Positions 5,393 through 57,908 of a DNA stretch of 64,000 bases are shown here, one piece after another (position 1 is the stretch's first letter; each line of letters starts with the position of its first letter). A program made the translations under genes and the position numbers. The notes under the pieces are model-generated. The model saw only the letters and a list, made by a program, of their open reading frames with translations, was not told the DNA's origin and did no database searches. Origin of the DNA: Octopus vulgaris (lineage: Eukaryota); NCBI GenBank assembly GCA_951406725.2, contig OX597818.1, positions 25,606,001 through 25,670,000 on the forward strand, in the 5' to 3' direction.

Positions 5393-6241
5393 AATACATG
5401 ATAATTTAAATGACTGCTAAAATTCATATTTAATATGAGCTAAAAAAAAAAAGTTCTTCATTCAGAGATCATCTTTATAGAAACAAAGGGTTATTTTACT
5501 TTTAAAATGGATTGCAAAACATCTCCAAAACATTTAAACCAATTTGTTATTGGTGATTCTACAGATTCACATGATTTCTTCCTTATTAAGACTAACTTTT
5601 GAGAATTTTTGACAAAACACATTTGTTTTTATTAAGAGGAACAACATGATGTTAACATAGTTCATTCACTATTAAACCATATGGAAACATCTAACCATCA
5701 CCTGTCAAATCTAACAAAGCAAATAATAAACATATTCAAGGTTAGCTAGTGCTGCTGTTACTATCTGATCTTGATAGTGATAAAGACTGCCAGTCTTGTT
5801 TTGCCAACATTCTGTTCACTAGCTGTAATATACTGCTGTCTGGTCACTTAACATGCTTTCTCCCACCCCTCCTTTTAAACTTAATTGCCAACTATAAAAA
5901 GGTAGGTTGGTGAATTCTCATGTTTTTAATGTCAGAAATAATAACAGTTAGGTTAAATGCAATGATTAAGAAAGAATATTAGGACTATCATTATTCTTGC
6001 TGAAGCAAGAGAAAAAACTTTGAGTTATATTTCATCAGCTGAAGCATTTTGCTTGCTTGTACTGTAGCAACTGACTTGCAAACTGTTACAAAAGGTTTGC
6101 CTCCCTGGCATGGCCAGGATAATCAAGAAAGTATTAGATAGTTAAAAAGAACTGATAGCATAGTACCATAGGCTACAGGCAGCAAGCCTGCTAAGAATGC
6201 AGGACTCCAGGAGTTACAACAAAACCAGAGATAAAAAAAAA

Positions 6242-6852
6242 TAATAATCCTTACTGTTATAGGCACAAGGCCTGAAATTACATCAACCCCGGTGCTTAAC
6301 TGGCACTTATTTTACTAACCCCAAAAGGATAACAGGCAAAGTCTACTTCAGTGGAATTACTACTACTACTACTACTACTACTAATAATAATAATAATAAT
6401 AATAGTAATTTCAAATTTTAGGAGATAGCCAGCAATTTTGGGAGGGGGGTAAGTCAATTACATTGATCTAGTGTTCAACTGGTACTTATTTTATCAACTC
6501 TGAAAGGATGAAAGGCAAAGTCAACTTTGACAGAATCTGAACTCAGAACACAAAGACAGGTAAAATGGTGCTAAGCATTTTGCCCAGCATGCTAATGATT
6601 CTATCAGTTCACAGCCTTAATGATAATAATCCTTTCTACTATAGGCACAAGAACTAAAATTTGGGGGGAGGGGGCCAGTCGATTAGATCAACTCCAGTAT
6701 GCAACTGGTACTTAATTCATCAACCCTGTAAGGATGAAAAGCAAAACTGACCTTGGTGGAATTTGAACTCAGAATGTAAAAATGAACGAAATGCTGTTAA
6801 ACATTTAGCCCAGTGTGTTAATGATTCTGCCAGCTCACAGCATTAATAATAA
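6242..6852 (-). mobile_element. Three tandem copies of a tRNA-derived SINE (family A) separated by (AAT)n/(TAC)n tails
   Basis: Reverse-complement matches to the copy at 25198-25402 (aaggcggcgagctgacagaaacgttagcacg...gagttcaaat...gactttgcctttcatc). Confidence 0.8.
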
Positions 6853-7211
6853 TACTAAAGTTCAAAGACAGACTTGGAGATTGAAAATCAACAGGATGTG
6901 GAAAATGAAAACCAAAATGAAGGAGAGAAAGTTCACCAGCCATATCCCAAATAACATCAATATCTATACAGTTCAGATGTCCAACTGGGAACAGCCCACA
7001 TACTTGGCAGTTAATATCTTGCCTTTAGTGCCTTAGACTAACAGTTTGGATCCTGGACTTAAGGATACAAAACAGGAAATACGGATAGGAACAATATTAA
7101 ACATTGTCTAATTTTTAGTATTTGACTGATTTTTCCTTGAAAGGATGAAAAGCAAAGTTAAATTCAGTGGAGGTGGTGAGTCTAGGGTATAAAGAAGCAG
7201 AATAGATACAG

Positions 7212-7397: not shown

Positions 7398-8512
7398 AGA
7401 AGAAATGAGGTAATCAGAAGATGGGATGGCTTATATTTACAGATATTTATTTATATATTACATTTTTTATATATGTATATCATATAACTTAGATCATTAG
7501 CGCTTTCTCCCATTCTAGTGGGGTTTTCAAATCAAAATAAGTTCCTTTGTGGGGAATTTTAATCATTTTATAGAGCTTCATAGTGGTGGGGAGGAATATA
7601 AGACAGTACAAGAGGGTGAGGTGGATGAGGAGAAAGTGAGAGAGAAAGCATGTGTGTATGTGTGTGTGTTTGTATCTGAGGTGAGTGCTAAAGAGAAAGC
7701 GGGGGGGGGGGGAGAGGGAAGAAGAAGGAAAGAATTTTTTTGGTCTGCTGGACAGAATATTGACTCCAAGGGGGTTCTAAGAATTTCAGCTTTGACCACT
7801 TAACAGTGTCACTGAGAGTGTGGTGGCAGGGAGGTAGGCCATAAATTATATTTCCTTTTATCATTGTGAGAATGGTCAAATGCTTTTTTGGGTTTAAGAA
7901 TTCTTTCCACTTGTTAAGATCATTTTGTTGAGGTGTGTGTGTGAGTGTCTGTGTGTTTGGAGAAGGGGAGAGAGACAAAAAAAGAAAAAGAAAAATAAGG
8001 GAGGAAGGGGAAAAAATTGTGTTGATATTTATACCACTATATATATATATACATGCTTATATATGAAATATTTGAAAAAAACCTTTTATAGGTTCAAAAT
8101 GAACAACTAAATTACACCATCTTGAAAATTGTATATCATAGGAAAGTTAAAATTAAGTGACAATTAAAAAGTAAAGATGAAGTAAATTATAAAAATAACA
8201 ATGTATATAACAGGCAATATATATATACACACACACACACATATATATATACATATACAGACATATACTAAATGTTCTACTATATTAGATTGTAAATCGA
8301 AAGATGTGTCCTTCAATGTCACTATATATATATATGCTTATACATGAAATATTAGAAAAAAACACCTTCTATCGATTCAAAATGAACAATCAAATTACAC
8401 CATCTTGAAAATTGCATATCATAGGAAGGTTAAAATTAGAATGACAATTGACGAGTAAAGATCAAGTAAATTACAAAAATAATATAATGTATATAACAGG
8501 TAATATATATAT

Positions 8513-8561
<49 letters not shown>

Positions 8562-9569
8562 TATTAAATGTTCTACTATATTATATTGTAAATCGAAAGA
8601 TTTGTCCTTCAATGTATGATGAGATTATTTACTTGATCTTTACTTGCCAATTGTCATTCTAATTTTAACCTTCCTATGATATGCAATTTTCAAGATGGTG
8701 AAATTTGATTGTTCATTTTGAATCGATAGAAGGTGTTTTTTTCTAATATTTCATGTATAAGCATGTATATATATATAGTGACATTGAAGGACACATCTTT
8801 CGATTTACAATCTAATATAGTAGAACATTTAGTATATGTCTGTATATGTATATATATATGTGTGTGTGTGTATATATATATATATTGCCTGTTATATACA
8901 TTATATTATTTTTATAATTTACTTCAACTTTACTTTTTAATTGTCACTTAATTTTAACTTTCCTATGATATACAATTTTCAAGATGGTGTAATTTAGTTG
9001 TTCATTTTGAACCTATAAAAGGTTTTTTTCAAATATTTCATGTATAAGCATGTATATATATATATATAGTGGTATAAATATCAACACAATTTTTTCCCCT
9101 TCCTCCCTTATTTTTCTTTTTCTTTTTTTGTCTCTCTCCCCTTCTCCAAACACACAGACACACACACACCTCCACAAAACGATCAGTGGAAAGAATTCTT
9201 AAACCCAAAAAAGCATTTGACCATTCTCACAATGATAAAAGGAAATATAATTTATGGCCTACTTCCCTGCCACCACACACTCAGTGACACTGTGAAGTGG
9301 TCAAAGCTGAAATTCTTAGAACCCCCTTGGAGTCAATATTCTGTCCAGCAGACCAAAAAAATTCTTTCCTTCTTCCCTCTTCCTCCCCCTCTTTCTCTTT
9401 AGCACTCATCTCAGATACAAACACACACACATGCTATTAAAATTCCCCACATGATATACATATATAAAAAATGTAATATATAAATAAATATCTGTAAATA
9501 TAAACCATCGGATCTTCTGATTACCTCATTTCTTCTAATATATAATACCTGTACATCATCTCCAAACCT

Positions 9570-12210: not shown

Positions 12211-12781
12211 TCCTATTTTAATGAGTGTGCGCATGGCATGTGTGTGTGTATGCATATGCATATATATATATATAGTGTTTGAGTTTATCTAGGACCTAGA
12301 TTGCAAAGTACCAGATTTGTCGCTTACAGGAATGAATTTGCTTTCCGCCCCTTATATATATAAAAAATTACAGGAAATCAAGATTTCTGATTTGGCAGGT
12401 TAAAACAAAAAATTGCCAAAATCTCTTTATAAATGGTAGATTCTTCAATATTTTCGCTGTTTCTGACCAGCATGAAACTATGTAGTGAGCTTATGAGTCT
12501 ATGAACGTATTACAATTAATTCAATATTGCAATTTGTGAACAACAACCTATTGTACATTATTTACATTTGACGGATATTTGTCCTCATCTTGTTTGTTGT
12601 TAACACGTTTCTGTTGATATACCCTCCAGCCTTCATCAGGTGTCTTGGGGAAATTTCGAACCTGGGTTCTCTTTCCTAAGGTATTTTTCATTATATTATT
12701 ATTATTATTATTCAGGTCACTGCCTAGAATCGAACTCGGAATCTTGGGGTTAGTAGCCCGCGCTCTTAACCACTACGCCAC

Positions 12782-12852
12782 GGGCATATGGCGTAGTGGT
12801 TAAGAGCGCGGGCTACTAACCCCAAGATTCCGAGTTCGATTCCAGGCAGTGA

Positions 12853-12854
<2 letters not shown>
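12782..12854 (+). promoter_or_regulatory. tRNA-like Pol III type-2 promoter (pseudo-tRNA, anticodon ACT); mirror copy on - at ~12715-12780
   Basis: A box TGGCGTAGTGG (12789-12799), anticodon arm GGG-CTACTAA-CCC, B box GTTCGATTC (12834-12842). T and acceptor stems are imperfect. Confidence 0.75.
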
Positions 12855-12890
<36 letters not shown>

Positions 12891-12937
12891 TCGAAAAATA
12901 CCTTAGGAATGAGAACCCAGGTTCGAAATTTCCCCAA

Positions 12938-12983
12938 GACATCTGATGAAGGCCGGAGGGTATATTAGCCGAAGCGTTGTGTT
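12938..12983 (+). ncRNA. Minimal type I hammerhead ribozyme (degenerate copy); mirror copy on - at ~12601-12644
   Basis: Two-arm consensus: ACAC-CTGATGA-a-GGCTG-gagggtatat-CAGCC-GAAAC-GTT-GTGT. The + copy has GAAG; the - copy keeps GAAA but has stem II mismatches. Confidence 0.7.
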
Positions 12984-24789: not shown

Positions 24790-25402
24790 ATAATAATAAT
24801 AATAATAATTCTTTCTACTATAGACACAAGGCCTGAAATTTTGAGCAAGGGAGCTAGTTGATTATATGGACCCTAGTGCTCATCAATTATTTCTTTCATT
24901 GATCCTGAAAGGATGAAAGGCAAAGTCAACTTTGGCAGAATTTGAACACAGAACACAAAGATGGACGAAATGCTGCCAAGCACTTTGTCTAGCATGCCAA
25001 CAATTCTGCCTGCCCACCCAAACATTGTAGGGCTCAATTACACAGATGTATTTAATTGTTTAAGTTTTGAAAGAAAGAAGGATCTAAAAGCCAGATTAGA
25101 ATTTGGGGCTTCAAGGGCCCCTCTAACCAAACAACATCAAAGTACGAAACATTTGAATCCAAGAGCTATTCCAACTTAACAATATCTTTGATATTCAAAG
25201 GCGGCGAGCTGACAGAAACGTTAGCACGCCAGGCGCAATATTTAGCGGTATTTCATCTGTCTTTATCTTTCTGAGTTCAAATTTCGCCGAGGTCGACTTT
25301 GCCTTTCATCGATAAATTAAGTACCAGTTGCGTACTGGATTCGATCTAATCGACTGGCCCACTCCCCCAAAACTTCGGGCCTTGTGCCTAGAGTAGAAAA
25401 GA
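24790..25402. mobile_element. Two SINE family A copies (24790-25020 on -, 25198-25402 on +)
   Basis: The + copy retains many CpGs (ggcggcgagctgacagaaacgttagcacgccaggcg), suggesting it is young. Confidence 0.8.
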
Positions 25403-26111
25403 ATATCTTTGATACTCAGCAGAAACAGTATGAAACAAAGTGGGTTACCTCGTTGAACTCTTAAAGCAGAAAGAATATAATAGCTGCCAGAGTATATATA
25501 TGAGAGGCTTCTCGAAAAGCCTGCCATGCAAAGTAGCGGATCTTTGAAGCTTTTTTTTTTTATATTGAGTTGAGAATGACATCGCGTCTAATTGAATTGA
25601 AGGTTTTTTAAAAATCGATTTTGAGAACTATCTCGACCACTGGGAGTGTGTTCACGAAAATCTGTGGCGTGAAAGGTTGCTTCAGACTCTAGTTTATTAT
25701 CAACCTCGAGTCGAACGGGTGTGAATTTGGAAAAGAGATAATAGGAGACGTGAGCTTTCTTAAGTGCACATAACTGCTTTAGGACAGTGATCATTTAAGG
25801 AAACAATCACAAAGCAATGACGAACCAAAATGCGTTATGTAGGGAAGGATGCTTGGGTGAGAGTACTCTCCCTTACATTATTTGTTTATGAAATTGCGTG
25901 AGACACCTATAGTAAAAAACTTTCTCTACAAGCCGTCATTCTATTAATGTTACTAAATGTTCATTCGTGATAAGACAGAAATGGACACTTTTCTTCATTT
26001 TGAGTGAAACACTCAAATTACCTTTTCTGAATTAATGTGAATATAATTTAATTACCTAGTTATCTCATCTTGATTCCTTTTTACCCCGTTCCAGAAAACG
26101 TGCTTTACGCA

Positions 26112-26835: not shown

Positions 26836-27461
26836 AATACATTTTCTCAAAAGCTGTTTATTGTACATAATGAAGGGTTGGTATTCACCGGGTTATTTTG
26901 GATAAATTCGTACTATTAATGTGTTGAAACTTTGCTAACACTATGTTGGACTTTGCGTTTAATACTCTGCCTAATAAACGATAAATGGTGTGAAAACAAT
27001 AACAAAATAATAAGAACGCTTAGAAAGAAAATTCATATTAATTCCCTAAGTCGATATAACTTTCCGAATATCATCTGATCTACAAATTTTATTTTCAGAA
27101 GCTAATGGATGCTCGTTTACAGTCAGCCTGTGTGACAGAATTTATCCACATTTGATCCGTTGTTATTGCTCTGTTAACAGACGGGTTCACTGCCTATAAG
27201 AACTAATATCTCCCCCACCCCAAAAAAAAGAAAAAAAATCACCCGCAAGCACACAAAAGCATGTACCTGTATACGTACAACATCAGAAAAATAGAGTAAA
27301 CATGTTTGTTTCTTTTTTTTATTTTAGATCTGGCCAAAAAAAAAAAAAAGGGACTAATGCAATTTCGCGCCTCTGCTTGAAAAATGCATTTTTTTGAAAA
27401 ATTTTTTTCGGATTTCTATGTTTTAGATGTGGGAGATTATGAATACGCGAAAAAAAAAATT

Positions 27462-28797
27462 AATTAAACTCGGAATATTGGGGGTCAGTAGCCTGTACAC
27501 TTAACCACTACGCCATATGACCGTGGGTAATTATGGAGTGAATTTTAGGGCTTATAAATCTAATATTTTCCTATCCTTTCTTAATACCAGTTTCCATATG
27601 CTATTCATATCTGCACTTGGTTTGCTTAGGAGATTGTTGTGTCCTAGCATACGTGCTGCTTCTTTTAGTTTTCATATTTTCCAATGGTGTTCTCTGTCTA
27701 TTATTTTAACTTCATCCCACAAGGGGAGATGGTCTCCATTTTTCCATATATGATCAGCTATACCCAATTTGTCAATATCTCCTTGTGTCACAGCTTTGTG
27801 ATGTTCGTCTACCCTTATTTTGAGGGGGCAGCATGTTTCGCCTTTGTATGACCTACCACAACTGCATGGGATGGAGTACATGCAGTCTTTGGCCATATTC
27901 TCTTCAATTGATGGTTTTACTCGAAGGAGATATTTGCAAAGTGTTGTATTACTCTTGAATACTGTCCTGATGTCATATGGGCCGCATATCTTTTGCACCT
28001 TTTCGAAAAGGCCTTTCACATAGGGTAGACAGACTGTGGACAGTTTGTTGGTTTCATCCTCTCTTTTCTTCATAATTGGAGTAGACAGTATGTTTTTGGG
28101 GTAGTTTTTGCTTAATAGATTGTTACTGAGCTTGATCATTTCTTCGTGGTGTGTATCAAAATCGCTACTTGTATTCTTTGCTCAATGTTTTAGGCACTGA
28201 GCAATCCCTCTCTTTACACTGTATGGATGGTGGGAATTGAATTTGAGGTATCGTCCAATGAAGGTTGGCTTGCGGTATACAGATATCCTGAATCCATACT
28301 TGATGTGTGTTATTGATATGACCAGGAATGCTAGCTGATTGTCTTTTCCCTTTTCCACTGAACTGTAAGGATGGCTTTATTGAGTTCACATGATCTAACG
28401 GCACATGGGCATCTTCCTGGTGGTGCCAGAATATAAAGGTGTCATCAACATATCACAGCCATAGAGTTGGTTTTAGTGGTGTTGAGCCTAAAGACAAATT
28501 CTCAAAGTATTCCATGTATATATTGGCTATTATCAGTGATAACGGTGAACCCATAGCTAAACCCTCTTCTTGTCGATATATTGATAAATCGGGTATAGCT
28601 GATCATGTATGGTTAAATGGAGACCTTCTTCCCCTGTAGGATGAAATTAAAATAATAGACAGAGAACACCACTGGAAAATAGGAAAACTAAAAGAAGCAG
28701 CACATATGCTAGGACACGATAATCTAAGTAGACCGAGTACTGATATGAATAGCATATGGGAACCAGTATTAAGGAAGGATAGGAAAATATTAGATTT
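27462..28797 (-). mobile_element. Penelope-like element (RT C-terminus plus GIY-YIG endonuclease) with an inverted duplication at its 5' break
   Basis: GLAMGSPLSLIIANIYMEYFE, RT motif 5 region (~28440), and CLPYVKGL...MYSIPCSCGRSYKGET...IRVDEH...IADH. 28578-28797 is the reverse complement of ~27557-27780. Confidence 0.9.
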
Positions 28798-28899
28798 ACT
28801 TGAGGCTAAATGACCTACTTCTGGTTATTGCAAGAAATGGAATTTGTACAGGTATAATTATACATGTCTCTACATGTCACATGTAGCTTTCCACTAGTA

Positions 28900-30043
28900 T
28901 TCATTTGTCTTTTACAGCTGCTGAAGTGGACTAATATGTTATAATGGAGGCAGTTGAATGCAGATCAGTGATCAGGTTCTTATACTTGAAAGGTTGTACA
29001 CCAAAAGAGACTATTGATGAGATGAAGGAAGTTTATGGTGATGATGCACCATCATACAGTATAATCAAGCATTGGCATCACCAGTTCAAATATGGTTGAA
29101 CATTGGTGGAAATTGTCCCTATTCCTGGATGACCACATTCTGCCATTGATGACAACACCATCCATAAAGTGGAAGCCGCCATTTTGTAGGATCACTGCAT
29201 AACTATTTGGCAACTAACCCAAGAAGTAAAGATAAGTGTAGCCTCCATGGAAAAAATCATTCATGACCATTTTCACATGCGGAAGTTGTCTGCACATTGG
29301 ATTCTCCAGATGCTCACACCTTTTCAGAAACAGTAATGAGTCAGTTGCTCCCAGGTTCTTTTGGCAACATGCCAAGAAAACAAGGAGGACTTTTTCACCA
29401 GATTTATCATACAGGATGAAACATGGGTCCATCACTATGATCCTGAGACTAAAATCCAGTTGAAGTAATGGCAGCATAACTCACCACCTCCAGAGAAGGC
29501 TTGTGTCCAACTCTCAACAAGCAAGGTGATGCTCACAGTCTTTTGGGACTAGTGCAGAGTGGTGAATGATAGATTTTCTGGCAAAGGGCACAATGAATAA
29601 TGGTGTGCTTCTGTGCTTCAGAAACAGAGGTGTGGCATGCTGACCAAAGGAGTCTGCCTCCTCCAAGATAATGCCCCAGTTCATAATGTGCATGTTATGC
29701 AGATGAAAGCACACTCTTGCAGCTATGAATCCTTCCTCATCCCTCTTACTCTTTCGACCTCGCACCATCTGACTTCACCTGTTTCCAACCATGAAGTCTT
29801 TTTTTGAAGGGGAAGCACTTTTTGGATGATGAACTGATTTCCAACGCAACCTACTGACTTCTACAGACAAGGTCTTCACAGCTGCATAAAGCAATTGGAG
29901 AAGTGTGTCACCATTAGTAGTGGCAATGTAGAAGTGTGTCACCATTGGTGGTGATGATTTAGAGAAGGACTAATTATGCCAAGTTTTGTTTATCCCAATC
30001 CTTGGGAAGTGGGTCAGGGGAAATCTTTAATGAACACCCCTCA
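28900..30043 (+). mobile_element. Decayed mariner, related to the 19528-20811 element
   Basis: IQDETWVHHYDPETK and LLQDNAPVHN with stops. The right TIR ttaatgaacacccctca is followed by TA. Confidence 0.88.
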
Positions 30044-30425
30044 TAGGACTAACCTACTGAACTTTCAATAAAACAAAGCCTTCAAGAAATCACATGAAAA
30101 ATGACTTTGTAATTTGTCAACCAAGTGTTCACTTTGAGAATGTTTTGTGCTTGCTATTCTGTGATGAAAGTGTTTGTGCATGTAATGCTCAATAGGTATA
30201 GAGCAATAGCCTTTTACTGTATTTGTGGATACTACATGCATATTTAAAAACAACGATAACATGTGTTAACATAATTTGGTCTTGTATGAAGATACAAAGG
30301 TTGGGACTTTTATGTTTCCTCAATAGTTTCCAGTGAAGTACTAAGTAACTATGAAGACGTCAGCACATCTAAAAAAATAAAAAAGAAACTGTACTACTAC
30401 TCATAATTTTATTATTTTTCTGCAG

Positions 30426-37645: not shown

Positions 37646-38592
37646 TGTCTCTGTTTGCAAAAGGATCAGGCTGTCCTTTCCCGATATTTGTAAATTAATT
37701 CAAGAATTTAATTCTTAAATTCTTGAATGTTTGCACACTGGGCAAAATGCTCAGCTGCATTTTGTTCATCTTTACATTCTAAGTTCAAATTCCACTGGGG
37801 CTGACTTTGCTTTCATAAGTACCAGTTGATCACACGTTGATGTAATCGACTTACCCCCTGCACCGAACTTGCTGGCCTAAAATTTAAAACTAATTCTTGA
37901 AATTATCTGTCCTTCACTTTGAGTATTATTAACAATTGCTGCCAGGTTTTTTGATTTCTTTTCCCAAAAAGGAAATTTCAATTAAGAATATTTTTGTGTT
38001 GGGTGTTCAGTGCCTATCTTCTAAGTTGATAAAATATATATGTTTACTCCCTTTTCTAATTGCTTTAATCTTTCTTAATAGCAGTAACACTGATTTTATA
38101 AAACAGTTTTACTTCCGTTTCATCACTGGTAAAAATGAATGTAAATTATTTACAGTTACTTGTTGCAAGTATTTGTTTTGTGGGGTTTCTTCCCTTGTCT
38201 GAAATACATAGTTATGTGCCTTGCTTTGGGATACTCTAAAAGAATCAAAGATTTGAATTCATAGCAATGAATCTTGGTGTCATGCCACTTTCACTCAATA
38301 TCAACAGTTTCTTTAATAAGATTTACAAAGACTGGAGTTCTAAGCTTTAATATATTGAAGCTTAAAAGAAGCATTTTTTTCTCTTTTGTTAATAAGTCTA
38401 GGCCCACCTAAACTGGTAAATTGTTATGGATAGTATCAATCTGAATATCTGTGAGAAAAATGTCATTGGAGAAGGAACCTGAGACCTAGTCTAAATGCTT
38501 GCAACAGGTGATGGTCTTAGGAGTATGAAGGAAAGAGTAAAGAAAATTGAGTTCGTTATAAGAAGTTTATGTACATATTTCTATTTTTATAG

Positions 38593-56077: not shown

Positions 56078-57395
56078 TGAGGGGATGCCCAATGGAAACT
56101 GTAATTTTGCAATATTATTTTATTCACTTAGTTTTACATGCTTTTACTTTTATTGCCTTCAAAGTATTCACCATTTGAAGCAATGCATCAGTTCAGACAC
56201 ATTTTCCACAGTTCAGAGCAGTCCGGGAACTCTTGTGAAGTGATGCCCATTAATGCCTCTGTTGTTTTTTTTTCTTCAACTCTCCTACATCTGCAAGGCA
56301 TTTTCCTTTCAAGACTTTTTCATTCAGGGTGACAAAAAAAAAAAAGTCGCAGGGAAAAAGCTTGGGTGAATAGGGAGGGTGGGTAAGCAGGGTCATACCA
56401 TTTTTGGTCAAAAACTGTCTCATACTCAAGGTGGTGTGTGCAGGTACATTGATGTGATGAAACCACCACTCTCCACTTTGCCACAGGGCAGAGCGTTTTC
56501 ATCTCACCACATCTCACAAACACTTCAGAACTTCCAAGTAAAATGTCTGGTTAAGAGATTGACCAGAAGGAACAAATTCTGTGTGGACAATTCTTTTCAC
56601 ATCGATGAAACAAATCAGCATCATCTTGACATTGGACTTCGCTTGACAGACTTTTTTGGGAAGTGGTAATATTGAATGGTTCCATTGACTTGATTGCTGC
56701 TTTGTTTCTAGGTCGTAGCCATAGCATCACCATTTATCACCAGTGATGACCTCTGGAAAAAGGTCCAGACAAACTCCCAACTGTTCTTTTAGTTCATGAC
56801 ACATTCAATCATGACTGATTTTGATCTTCCATGAGTAAGCAAAGCACAAATTTTGCTGCAACTCTTTTCATTCCCAATTCCTCACTCAAAATTTGTTGGC
56901 AGGAGCTCCAGGACACACCATCATGTCAACAGGTTTGTCAGTTGTTTGATGATGGTCCTACAAGATCAGTTTATGAATTTTCATGATGTTTTCATTTGTT
57001 AAGGAGGTTGACAGTTGTCCTATTAGATTGGTCTTCAAGTAACAAGTGACCATTCCTAAAGTGTGAAAACCACTTGTAAACTTGTGTTTTGTTCATGGCA
57101 GTGTCCTTGTAAGCTGTTTGAAGCATGGAAATTACTTCAGCCACTATTTTCCCCAGCAGAAAACAGAATATCACGAAAGCATGCTGTTCCTTCACTTTAG
57201 CCATCGTAAACATCAATGAACAGGAGAGAAGCACTGCTAAACAATGACATACCACATGGCAGCACAACTCCAGTAGATACTACTGGTCAGCAGAGTATCA
57301 AGAGTCGCATCAAGTGGCTTCTAATGGCAGAAGTCTGAACTACAATGGGCTTGTCCCACAGGGAATGTTTCCATTTACTTTTGGGTAGCCCCTCC
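56078..57395 (-). mobile_element. Decayed full-length mariner
   Basis: TA-flanked TIRs tgaggggatgcccaatggaaa / tttacttttgggtagcccctcc. EQHAFVIFCFLLGK...KTQVYKWFSHFRNG and HPPYSP-like motifs. Confidence 0.88.
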
Positions 57396-57908
57396 TATTA
57401 TTAAAAATACTAAGGCATTGAGTTGATAGAATTGTTACATGCTGGAAAAATGCTCAGGGACATTTCTTCCAACTTTATGTTCTAATTTCATGTGCTACTG
57501 GGGTTGACTTTGCCTTTCATTCATAAAATAAATACCAGTTGAATACCGATGGCTGATGTAATTGACTTAATCCTCCCCCAAAACTGCTGGCCTTGTGCCA
57601 AAATTTTGGATCAGTATACTATTAAAAAATACTTATATATCTTAATATAGTATTAAAAGAAAAGAAACAAGCAAAATAAATAATAACAGATAAATAATGA
57701 TTACTTTTAATTTACTTTATTTTTAAAAATGTATTTTCACTTTACTGAAAATCTTGAAGAGTCCTAAACTACCACAGCTCCATCCCACTTGCTCAGTATC
57801 AGTTTCTGCATTTTTCCTCATCTATTTTGTTAGCTCTCATATTAGCTAATATTTTTTTGCTGTCCCCTGCATCTTTTCTGACGGCTAGAAAAGTGAAATA
57901 TGTGCAAG

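What the first reader, a model, noticed from the sequence alone, without database searches (positions are those of the whole stretch)
27462..27560. The same tRNA-like head is built into the 3' end of a coding Penelope element
Seen: the reverse complement of 27462-27524 (acggtcatatggcgtagtggttaagtgtacaggctactgacccccaatattccgagtttaatt) matches 12781-12841, including the palindrome's spacer. It lies just downstream of the GIY-YIG frame on the same strand. Inference: the tRNA-hammerhead unit is the pseudo-LTR of an autonomous PLE family that captured a tRNA gene, and the 12.5-kb palindrome is a 5'-truncated inverted insertion of it. I do not know of an internal tRNA-type promoter described in a PLE pLTR, but I cannot check the literature.
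Basis: partly seen in the sequence, partly recalled or inferred. Interest (0 to 1): 0.8.

Follow-up and report, generated by a model that had tools for sequence, protein, structure and literature searches.

The report
Penelope retrotransposon carrying a tRNA-like head
A high-copy jumping gene in what is likely an octopus genome carries the two promoter boxes of a tRNA gene just after its protein-coding part; they likely let RNA polymerase III start short RNAs that would be copied back as small insertions like the 500-base palindrome nearby, an arrangement our literature searches did not find described for this class of element.

Summary
The match is real: 27467-27526 (minus) against 12778-12836, 52 of 60 identical. 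The head begins 29 nt after the stop of a decayed RT + GIY-YIG Penelope-type frame. It is family-wide, not a local insertion. In four runs from four organisms, depth runs unbroken from the endonuclease end through the spacer into the head, then falls about 100-fold (DNA) where another repeat cuts this copy. Other copies continue there with exactly the letters of the 12.8-kb unit. That unit reads head, (AAT)11, ATG, minimal hammerhead, and its peptide matches the N-terminus of the closest full-length relative. The palindrome arms end at +124 and +152, like the two reverse-transcription starts of Poseidon. The unit is therefore likely the pLTR, and the palindrome a short inverted insertion. The head has exact A and B boxes at tRNA spacing but broken stems, so it is likely a tRNA-derived promoter rather than a tRNA gene. 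Not shown: promoter activity, an intact autonomous copy, head-to-hammerhead contiguity in endonuclease-bearing copies, and direct tRNA capture versus an old SINE. No description found in 10 paper searches; Repbase and Dfam could not be checked.

The parts
27552..28581 (-). 5'-truncated, decayed Penelope-type ORF: RT C-terminal half, thumb/linker, GIY-YIG endonuclease; in-frame stop at 27554-27552
   Evidence: tblastn of P0001, P0005 and P0007, 51-75% identity; 9 homologs at 45-64%; TERT and T4 EndoII profile hits; I-TevI best fold match
27523..27551 (-). 29-nt spacer between stop and head; its last 7 nt form a short hairpin with the head's first 5 nt when the majority letters of other copies are used
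   Evidence: majority letters at 27520 and 27528 table 3
27467..27522 (-). tRNA-like head, positions +1 to about +56: A box at 27515-27505, B box cut after 3 letters
   Evidence: depth and loose ends
27352..27466 (.). separate, lower-copy repeat that abuts and cuts off the head at this locus (context, not part of the element)
   Evidence: its own depth plateau and loose ends at 27354; summed depth at 27446 about 100-fold below the head in the DNA runs
28580..28798 (+). inverted copy of the ORF's 3' end at the 5' truncation point; it ends just before the stop codon, where a mariner 5' end begins
   Evidence: blastn 87.7% over 227 nt; mariner HTH_48 E 1e-10
12782..12854 (+). complete 73-nt tRNA-register head in the palindrome's right arm: A box 12789-12799, B box 12834-12842, 34 nt apart
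12857..12889 (+). (AAT)11 tract after the head
   Evidence: sequence
12909..13060 (+). likely ORF start (ATG at 12909, present in the right arm only) and first 152 nt of the Penelope ORF; the last about 28 nt are a tail-like extension absent from the left arm
   Evidence: match to P0007 residues 18-59, E 3.6e-5; 0 of 200 shuffles reach 1e-4
12938..12983 (+). minimal type I hammerhead overlapping the ORF start (one core change in this arm); predicted cleavage after 12978
   Evidence: descriptor scan: 1 hit in the window, 0.007 per simulated window; the strict descriptor found none
12552..12780 (-). left, inverted arm: head from +8, shorter (AAT)n, decayed hammerhead, ORF start to +124
   Evidence: blastn self-match 87.6%; arm alignment
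12537..12544 (+). left copy of a possible decayed target-site duplication (right copy at 13061-13068)
   Evidence: 8-nt exact match; 0.44% of 5000 random flank pairs reach it

Best explanation
This is a high-copy Penelope-type retrotransposon family whose frame is followed, 29 nt after the stop, by a tRNA-like head with exact A and B boxes; that head likely makes up about half of a roughly 156-nt pseudo-LTR and likely acts as an internal RNA polymerase III promoter firing into the ORF start. Layout in a tandem: RT-GIY-YIG stop, 29-nt spacer, 73-nt head, (AAT)n, ATG with overlapping hammerhead, next ORF. Shown: stop-spacer-head linkage across copies; head-(AAT)n-hammerhead-ORF start in both palindrome arms. 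Inferred: that the two halves are one molecule; that the element's RT starts inside the ORF 5' end at about +124 and +152, as Poseidon_Ac does; and that the 12.5-kb palindrome arose from one such event, with a tail-bearing copy plus an inverted tail-less copy joined by 3 nt of microhomology at the hairpin at the head's start. Inferred and untested: Pol III transcripts from the head would carry the RT-start region and so serve as substrates for short SINE-like copies, while the protein would be made from longer read-through RNA of tandem copies. The 27.5-kb copy is a dead, 5'-truncated member whose pLTR was cut by another repeat. Confidence in the architecture is about 0.85, and in promoter function about 0.45.
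For: (1), RNA reads X24: depth 715 at 27579, 711 at 27528, 815 at 27520, 634 at 27499, and 16 at 27446. DNA contigs X2/X3/X4: summed depth 201k/204k/17k at 27499 against 103k/335k/27k at 27579 and 2.0k/3.0k/0.2k at 27446. (2) Loose ends at 27481 in 58, 59 and 48 contigs and 329 reads; their consensus equals window 12853-12824 minus at 30 of 30 letters; 175 more reads at 27482 differ by 2 letters. Majority letters at 27486, 27497, 27499 and 27520 equal the 12.8-kb copy. (3) Contig record 17 of X4 spans 27500-27783 with 46 other letters, i.e. an independent copy across the stop codon. (4) The unit's peptide matches the N-terminus of P0007 (E 3.6e-5; best of 200 shuffles 0.007), which is the closest full-length relative. 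(5) A hammerhead overlaps the ORF start and the arms end at +124 and +152, paralleling PMC11167929 (hammerhead at the ORF start, RT starts at +111-118 and one tail length further). (6) A+B box pairs: 2 in the window (both arms), 0 in 200 simulated windows; the boxes are exact while the stems pair only 2/7, 1/4, 3/5 and 3/5. (7) PLE promoters lie in the pLTR (PMC6765202 and PMC8557442 passages), and little else fits in this one.
Against: No intact copy or genome was available. Loose-end consensus is cut at 30 letters, so (AAT)n and the hammerhead were never seen joined to a GIY-YIG end. About half of the RNA depth comes from what looks like one locus truncated at 27870 (321 reads). Summed contig depth is not a copy number, and head-only copies are under-counted because they align over only about 47 nt. 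Only 24 of 1,889 loose-end rows, 40 of 341 variant rows and 24 of 23,694 pieces were shown. Record 17 has only 23 letters inside the head, under the tool's 31-letter rule for the spacer-head boundary. Only 1 of 42 full-length relatives has the matching N-terminal segment, a profile of all 42 N-termini did not hit the unit, and part of the match comes from hammerhead core codons that any in-frame PLE hammerhead would share. The ATG is in one arm only. No tRNA by Rfam or ARAGORN. No start-site pile-up was listed (table 6), RNA reads lay on both strands, and no promoter test was possible. The right arm starts 1-4 nt upstream of tRNA +1, which fits truncation of a long RNA at the hairpin as well as a Pol III start.
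Confidence: 0.6

Rival explanations
1. Passenger relic: a minimal tRNA-derived SINE (head plus (AAT)n tail) inserted once into the ancestral pLTR and was amplified passively. Transcription comes from a Pol II promoter elsewhere in the pLTR or ORF start, or from host read-through. Short palindromes are ordinary 5' truncations that stall at the hairpin or GC-rich head.
For: Head plus (AAT)n looks like a complete small SINE. Exact boxes with broken stems are what SINE heads look like before any capture. SINE insertion into a terminal repeat is the proposed origin of Helenus and Ajax (PMC10886601 section 21), which also argues that autonomous elements must use Pol II. The right arm starts upstream of +1 at the hairpin.
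Against: The boxes are exact in both arms and the A box in the 27.5-kb copy, and the majority letters seen restore the same head in four organisms. Only about 50 nt of the pLTR are neither head nor (AAT)n.
Confidence: 0.4
2. The head is the element's sole promoter: Pol III transcribes the whole ORF and the uncapped or hammerhead-processed RNA is translated, making this a Pol III-driven autonomous retroelement.
For: The head sits 127 nt upstream of the likely ATG in sense orientation. Both sense-strand T4 runs in this copy's 1,022-nt ORF remnant are broken by the majority letter in other copies (28160, 28006, 28008).
Against: Only about 2 such runs are expected from base composition, and 301 variant rows were hidden, so the T4 observation has no power. 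Pol III RNAs are short and uncapped (established knowledge; PMC10886601 makes the processivity argument). The predicted cleavage site lies inside the ORF (+70).
Confidence: 0.1
3. Two families: the GIY-YIG-head junction belongs to a defective chimeric subfamily, and the head-(AAT)n-hammerhead unit is a separate Sm-alpha-like non-autonomous element that borrowed an ORF 5' end; the autonomous master has another pLTR.
For: Contiguity past 12853 was not seen in endonuclease-bearing copies. 65 RNA reads and 26 and 30 contigs leave near the head's start (27527, 27519) into other sequence. Sm-alpha shows that non-coding promoter+hammerhead units exist (PMC6765202).
Against: No depth drop or listed loose end between 27553 and 27528, so headless GIY-YIG ends are not common among the rows shown. 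The N-terminus in the unit matches the same relative that best matches the C-terminus among full-length proteins.
Confidence: 0.12
4. An independent SINE insertion or chance adjacency at this one locus.
For: Both ends of the 27.5-kb copy are disrupted by other repeats.
Against: The junction is covered at family-level depth in 4 of 4 runs from four organisms, including copies 16% diverged from this one.
Confidence: 0.02

Closest known systems
Penelope/Poseidon-clade PLEs, e.g. Poseidon_Ac of Anolis (PMC11167929, parts 1-2 of 4 read)
   Same: Single ORF with N-terminal domain, telomerase-like RT and C-terminal GIY-YIG; hammerhead overlapping the ORF start; copies ending inside the ORF 5' end at two sites a tail apart; inverted 5'-truncated partner; endonuclease preference for ATT, which matches the (AAT)n tract.
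   Different: A tRNA-register head with A and B boxes fills about half of the pLTR. The parts read describe no such sequence; the Penelope and Chlamys pLTR promoters described in PMC8557442 passages overlap an intron.
Schistosoma Sm-alpha / Sj-alpha SINE-like repeats (via PMC6765202 and PMC8490949 passages; the original papers were not read)
   Same: A Pol III-type promoter followed by a type I hammerhead; tandem logic in which the upstream unit's promoter transcribes the next.
   Different: Sm-alpha is non-coding, with a canonical hammerhead. Here the promoter-like head is joined to an RT-endonuclease ORF on one side and to the ORF start on the other.
Helenus, Ajax and Cassandra TRIMs, 'TRIMp3' (PMC10886601, passages and section 21)
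   Same: A small-RNA-derived Pol III promoter embedded in a terminal repeat; not a functional tRNA; proposed origin by SINE insertion into the repeat.
   Different: These are non-autonomous true-LTR elements with PBS and PPT. That paper expects autonomous partners not to share such repeats, whereas here the head is attached to the coding sequence itself.
Metazoan non-LTR retrozymes (bioRxiv 10.64898/2026.07.22.740005, part 1 of 5 plus term search; PMC7761336 passages)
   Same: Short hammerhead-bearing units related to PLE pLTRs.
   Different: Retrozymes are head-to-tail tandem arrays; the preprint has no occurrence of tRNA, promoter or octopus. The unit here is inverted, carries an ORF 5' end and has a tRNA-like head.
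Octopus tRNA-derived SINEs (Ohshima and Okada 1994, seen only as a citation in PMC4758252)
   Same: tRNA-derived head in an octopus repeat.
   Different: This unit ends in a PLE ORF fragment rather than a LINE-type tail; whether it was earlier catalogued as one of these SINEs is open.

Membership tests
Penelope-like element (C-terminal EN+) | RT related to telomerase RT | tested here: met
   RT motifs at 28581-28336; profile of relatives hits TERT at E 7e-5, alongside other RTs with similar or better E
Penelope-like element (C-terminal EN+) | C-terminal GIY-YIG endonuclease in the same ORF | tested here: met
   Invariant Y102, R123, H127, H144; T4 EndoII E 0.003; I-TevI best fold match, probability 0.93, E 0.39; Pfam only sub-threshold
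Penelope-like element (C-terminal EN+) | Minimal type I hammerhead in the pLTR | tested here: met
   Right arm fits a relaxed descriptor, chance 0.007 per window; each arm has decayed positions and the strict descriptor failed; cleavage not tested
Penelope-like element (C-terminal EN+) | Inverted 5'-truncated partner and 30-40-bp tail at one end | tested here: met
   Inverted copy at 28580-28798; palindrome arms end at +124 and +152, a 28-nt difference
Penelope-like element (C-terminal EN+) | Direct tandem arrangement pLTR-ORF-pLTR on one molecule | not testable with these tools
   No genome held; no listed contig piece longer than about 410 nt
Penelope/Poseidon clade | No extra Zn-finger-like motif between RT and EN (unlike Neptune and Nematis), and phylogenetic placement | tested here: inconclusive
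   No conserved cysteines in the linker of the alignment consensus; no tree with named reference elements was built
Autonomous active element | Intact full-length ORF in the genome | tested here: inconclusive
   This copy is broken; three protein searches and one representative search returned no full-length protein near-identical to it
Functional tRNA gene | Cloverleaf with paired stems | tested here: not met
   ARAGORN none down to -ps70, Rfam none at E 10, stems 2/7, 1/4, 3/5, 3/5
tRNA-derived Pol III type 2 promoter (SINE2-type head) | A box and B box at tRNA spacing | tested here: met
   Exact matches to recalled consensus patterns, 34 nt apart, 0 in 200 simulated windows; loops fall in a 73-nt tRNA register
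tRNA-derived Pol III type 2 promoter (SINE2-type head) | Transcription by RNA polymerase III from the head | not testable with these tools
   The one RNA run shows reads on both strands and no start pile-up
Independent SINE insertion at 27.5 kb | Locus-specific, with its own TSD and empty sites in other copies | tested here: not met
   Other copies carry the same junction in 4 of 4 runs
Non-LTR retrozyme | Non-coding head-to-tail tandem units each with a hammerhead | tested here: not met
   The unit is an inverted pair and contains an ORF 5' end

The most novel reading that the evidence does not exclude
A protein-coding Penelope family uses a captured tRNA-type Pol III promoter in its pseudo-LTR. 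The same master elements would give both ORF-length RNA and short Pol III RNAs holding the hammerhead and RT-start signal, so the element manufactures its own SINE-like, often palindromic progeny. A sizeable part of the repeats catalogued as octopus tRNA SINEs, and of the octopus's unusual load of near-perfect double-stranded RNA, could then be Penelope pLTR copies.
Probability: 0.3. Interest if true: 0.8.

Novelty: new variant of a known kind. Interest (0 to 1): 0.6.

Why it matters
PLE promoters are known to lie in the pLTR but have been characterised in very few elements. Pol III promoters inside terminal repeats are described for non-autonomous elements (Cassandra, Helenus, Ajax, Sm-alpha), and PMC10886601 argues that autonomous partners should not share them. 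A coding PLE with A and B boxes 120 nt before its likely start codon would bridge Sm-alpha-type repeats and PLEs, and it makes the question of which polymerase drives PLE RNA directly testable by mutating two short boxes. It may also affect repeat annotation: O. vulgaris is annotated as 11.6% SINE and 6.83% Penelope-like (PMC13282606), and short head-first copies would be easy to file as SINEs. Palindromic insertions are ready-made long double-stranded RNA in an animal with exceptional hyper-editing (PMC5625713 passages). These last two links are untested here.

Tried and rejected
Pattern scans for the head or hammerhead region: 4 metagenome loci, all chance 19-21-nt matches; none in genome contigs or viral contigs; protein-based locus search in viral contigs none. 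Rfam: no tRNA or hammerhead in the whole window or in 12770-13070. ARAGORN none. The strict hammerhead descriptor found nothing; the relaxed one was written after seeing the sequence. The profile of 42 N-termini did not hit the unit. The peptide search with the left arm found one protein only, an Octopus bimaculoides dystrobrevin isoform with a fragment of the unit at its N-terminus; the search with P0007 residues 1-130 found only itself. The T-run test for Pol III compatibility has no power. A lone A-box match at 56483 lies in what reads by eye as a mariner-like transposase remnant and has no B box; rejected as chance. No RNA holder was listed in the run index; this says nothing about expression. 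The organisms of the relatives P0001-P0009 could not be looked up. Four look-ups of earlier findings returned nothing. The supplement of PMC8557442 has no match to three short DNA motifs or one peptide motif of this family (line breaks or cut cells could hide one). Treating the head as a functional tRNA was rejected; the source tRNA was not identified.

Full report
Observation. The reverse complement of 27467-27526 matches 12778-12836 at 52 of 60 columns (E 3.9e-12), including the palindrome's spacer. The match ends at 27467, three letters into the B box. The head's +1 (27522) lies 29 nt after the in-frame stop at 27554-27552. Upstream on the same strand, 28581-27552 is a 5'-truncated, broken RT + endonuclease frame. 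Nine relatives were found at 45-64% identity. A 52-sequence alignment has invariant Y, R and H residues in the C-terminal domain. Its profile hits telomerase RT and T4 endonuclease II, and the model's best PDB match is the I-TevI catalytic domain, with high probability but a weak E-value. An inverted copy of the ORF's 3' end sits at 28580-28798, as is typical of PLEs (PMC8557442, passages). The host is likely an octopus: the only protein hit of the unit's peptide is an O. bimaculoides isoform.

Is the head part of the family? No genome is held, so 27352-28251 was laid against 4 of the 24 listed runs, chosen to be four organisms and four studies, at 80% likeness. They gave 8,722, 9,439 and 5,362 contigs and 3,710 RNA reads. 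RNA depth is 715 at 27579 (ORF end), 711 at 27528 (spacer), 815 at 27520 and 634 at 27499 (head), and 16 at 27446. In the DNA runs the head and ORF end have summed depths of the same order, about 100-fold above 27446. No listed loose end falls between the stop and 27528. At 27481, 58, 59 and 48 contigs and 329 reads leave the window copy, with a consensus equal to window 12853-12824 minus at 30 of 30 letters. The majority letters at four head positions equal the 12.8-kb copy, and one 287-nt contig with 46 differences spans 27500-27783. So other copies carry the head and carry it whole; this copy was cut by a different, lower-copy repeat at 27352-27466.

Limits of that test. About half of the RNA depth looks like one locus truncated at 27870 (321 reads). 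Summed contig depth is not a copy number. Head-only copies are under-counted, although 65 reads and 26 and 30 contigs do leave at the head's start. Only 24 of 1,889 loose-end rows, 40 of 341 variant rows, 15 of 81 joints and 24 of 23,694 pieces were shown. Loose ends are cut at 30 letters, so the step from the head to (AAT)n and the hammerhead was not seen in endonuclease-bearing copies.

What the 12.5-kb unit is. The right arm reads: 73-nt head (12782-12854), (AAT)11, ATG at 12909, then a frame that matches residues 18-59 of P0007 (E 3.6e-5). P0007 is the closest full-length relative (747 bits against P0001, versus 490 or less for the other 41; 51% to the window frame). Controls: none of 200 shuffles of that N-terminus reached 1e-4 (best 0.007), and the next best of the 42 N-termini scored 0.003 elsewhere in the window. 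Against this: only 1 of 42 relatives has the segment, their joint profile does not hit, some identities come from hammerhead core codons, and the left arm lacks the ATG. A minimal type I hammerhead overlaps the frame at 12938-12983 (relaxed descriptor, 0.007 per simulated window; strict descriptor none), of the kind described in PMC4209133 (parts 1-2 of 4). The left arm ends at +124 and the right at about +152, followed by a possible decayed TSD (8 nt exact, 0.44% of 5,000 random pairs). Poseidon_Ac has its hammerhead at the ORF start and starts reverse transcription at +111-118 and one tail length further, and its endonuclease prefers ATT (PMC11167929, parts 1-2 of 4; supplements listed, not read). 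The simplest reading is that the unit is the pLTR plus ORF start of the same family, and that the palindrome is a very short insertion with an inverted partner, joined at a hairpin that spans the head's start.

What the head is. It has an exact A box and B box 34 nt apart: 2 such pairs in the window (the two arms), 0 in 200 simulated windows (the box patterns are recalled consensus). The loops fall in a 73-nt tRNA register, but the stems pair only 2/7, 1/4, 3/5 and 3/5, and ARAGORN and Rfam find nothing. It is therefore like a SINE head, not a tRNA gene. The source tRNA was not identified, and head plus (AAT)n could be an ancient small SINE.

Mechanism. The non-coding part of the pLTR is about 156 nt, of which 73 are head and 33 are (AAT)n. 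PLE promoters lie in the pLTR (PMC6765202; PMC8557442). I therefore favour the head acting as a Pol III promoter that yields short RNAs containing the hammerhead and RT-start region, copied in trans into short insertions, with the protein made from longer read-through RNA. This step is inference. A passenger relic is nearly as likely (0.4). Pol III transcription of the whole ORF is unlikely but not excluded (0.1): the two sense T4 runs of this copy are absent in the majority of other copies, but that test has no power.

Comparison and novelty. By RT, endonuclease, hammerhead, inverted partner and tail this is a C-terminal EN+ PLE; the clade is probably Penelope/Poseidon, not tested by tree. 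It works like Sm-alpha (Pol III promoter plus hammerhead, non-coding; PMC6765202 and PMC8490949 passages) and like the Helenus, Ajax and Cassandra TRIMs (PMC10886601, passages and section 21), but those are non-autonomous. Ten searches of the open-licence library turned up no description of a tRNA-type promoter in a coding PLE in the listings and passages seen. Term searches found no 'tRNA' in PMC4209133 or the 2026 retrozyme preprint (part 1 of 5 read; its supplements are closed). Also seen as passages only: PMC4758252, PMC8967140, PMC5625713, PMC6962438, PMC7761336; PMC13282606 part 1 of 3 and a supplement search. Repbase, Dfam, Ohshima and Okada 1994, Ferbeyre 1998 and the Terminon paper were not available, so prior cataloguing of this repeat, possibly as a SINE, is not excluded.

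Verdict. Observation confirmed; family-level architecture well supported; promoter role plausible and untested. New variant of a known kind, interest 0.6.

Noticed in passing
window 7658-9432: A 1.8-kb near-palindrome (90.6%) with nested duplicated segments of about 280 and 150 nt; no link to the Penelope unit was seen.
   Followed up: partly
window 28799-30046: A decayed mariner whose 5' inverted repeat is missing its outer part exactly where the inverted Penelope copy ends; a second related copy lies at 19494-20845.
   Followed up: partly
window 27352-27466: A separate multicopy repeat with its own end near 27354 and one opposite-strand joint, possibly a MITE or DNA transposon end.
   Followed up: no
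window 27481-27870 in run X24: What looks like one highly expressed locus carries a 5'-truncated copy of this element (321 reads share one junction at 27870), perhaps in a host transcript; smaller shared junctions lie at 27927 and 27994.
   Followed up: no
window 27527 in run X24: 65 reads leave at the head's start into a short inverted copy of the head's first bases followed by an (AAT)n tract; agreement is only 0.67, so this may be a mixture.
   Followed up: no
protein P0010 against window 12551-12673: An annotated O. bimaculoides dystrobrevin beta isoform begins with about 25 residues from this element's ORF start, a predicted exonisation or an annotation artefact.
   Followed up: no
window 6234-6858, 16692-18067, 24785-25406, 37734-37892, 57411-57606: A dispersed repeat built of roughly 230-nt subunits, in direct and inverted arrangements.
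   Followed up: no
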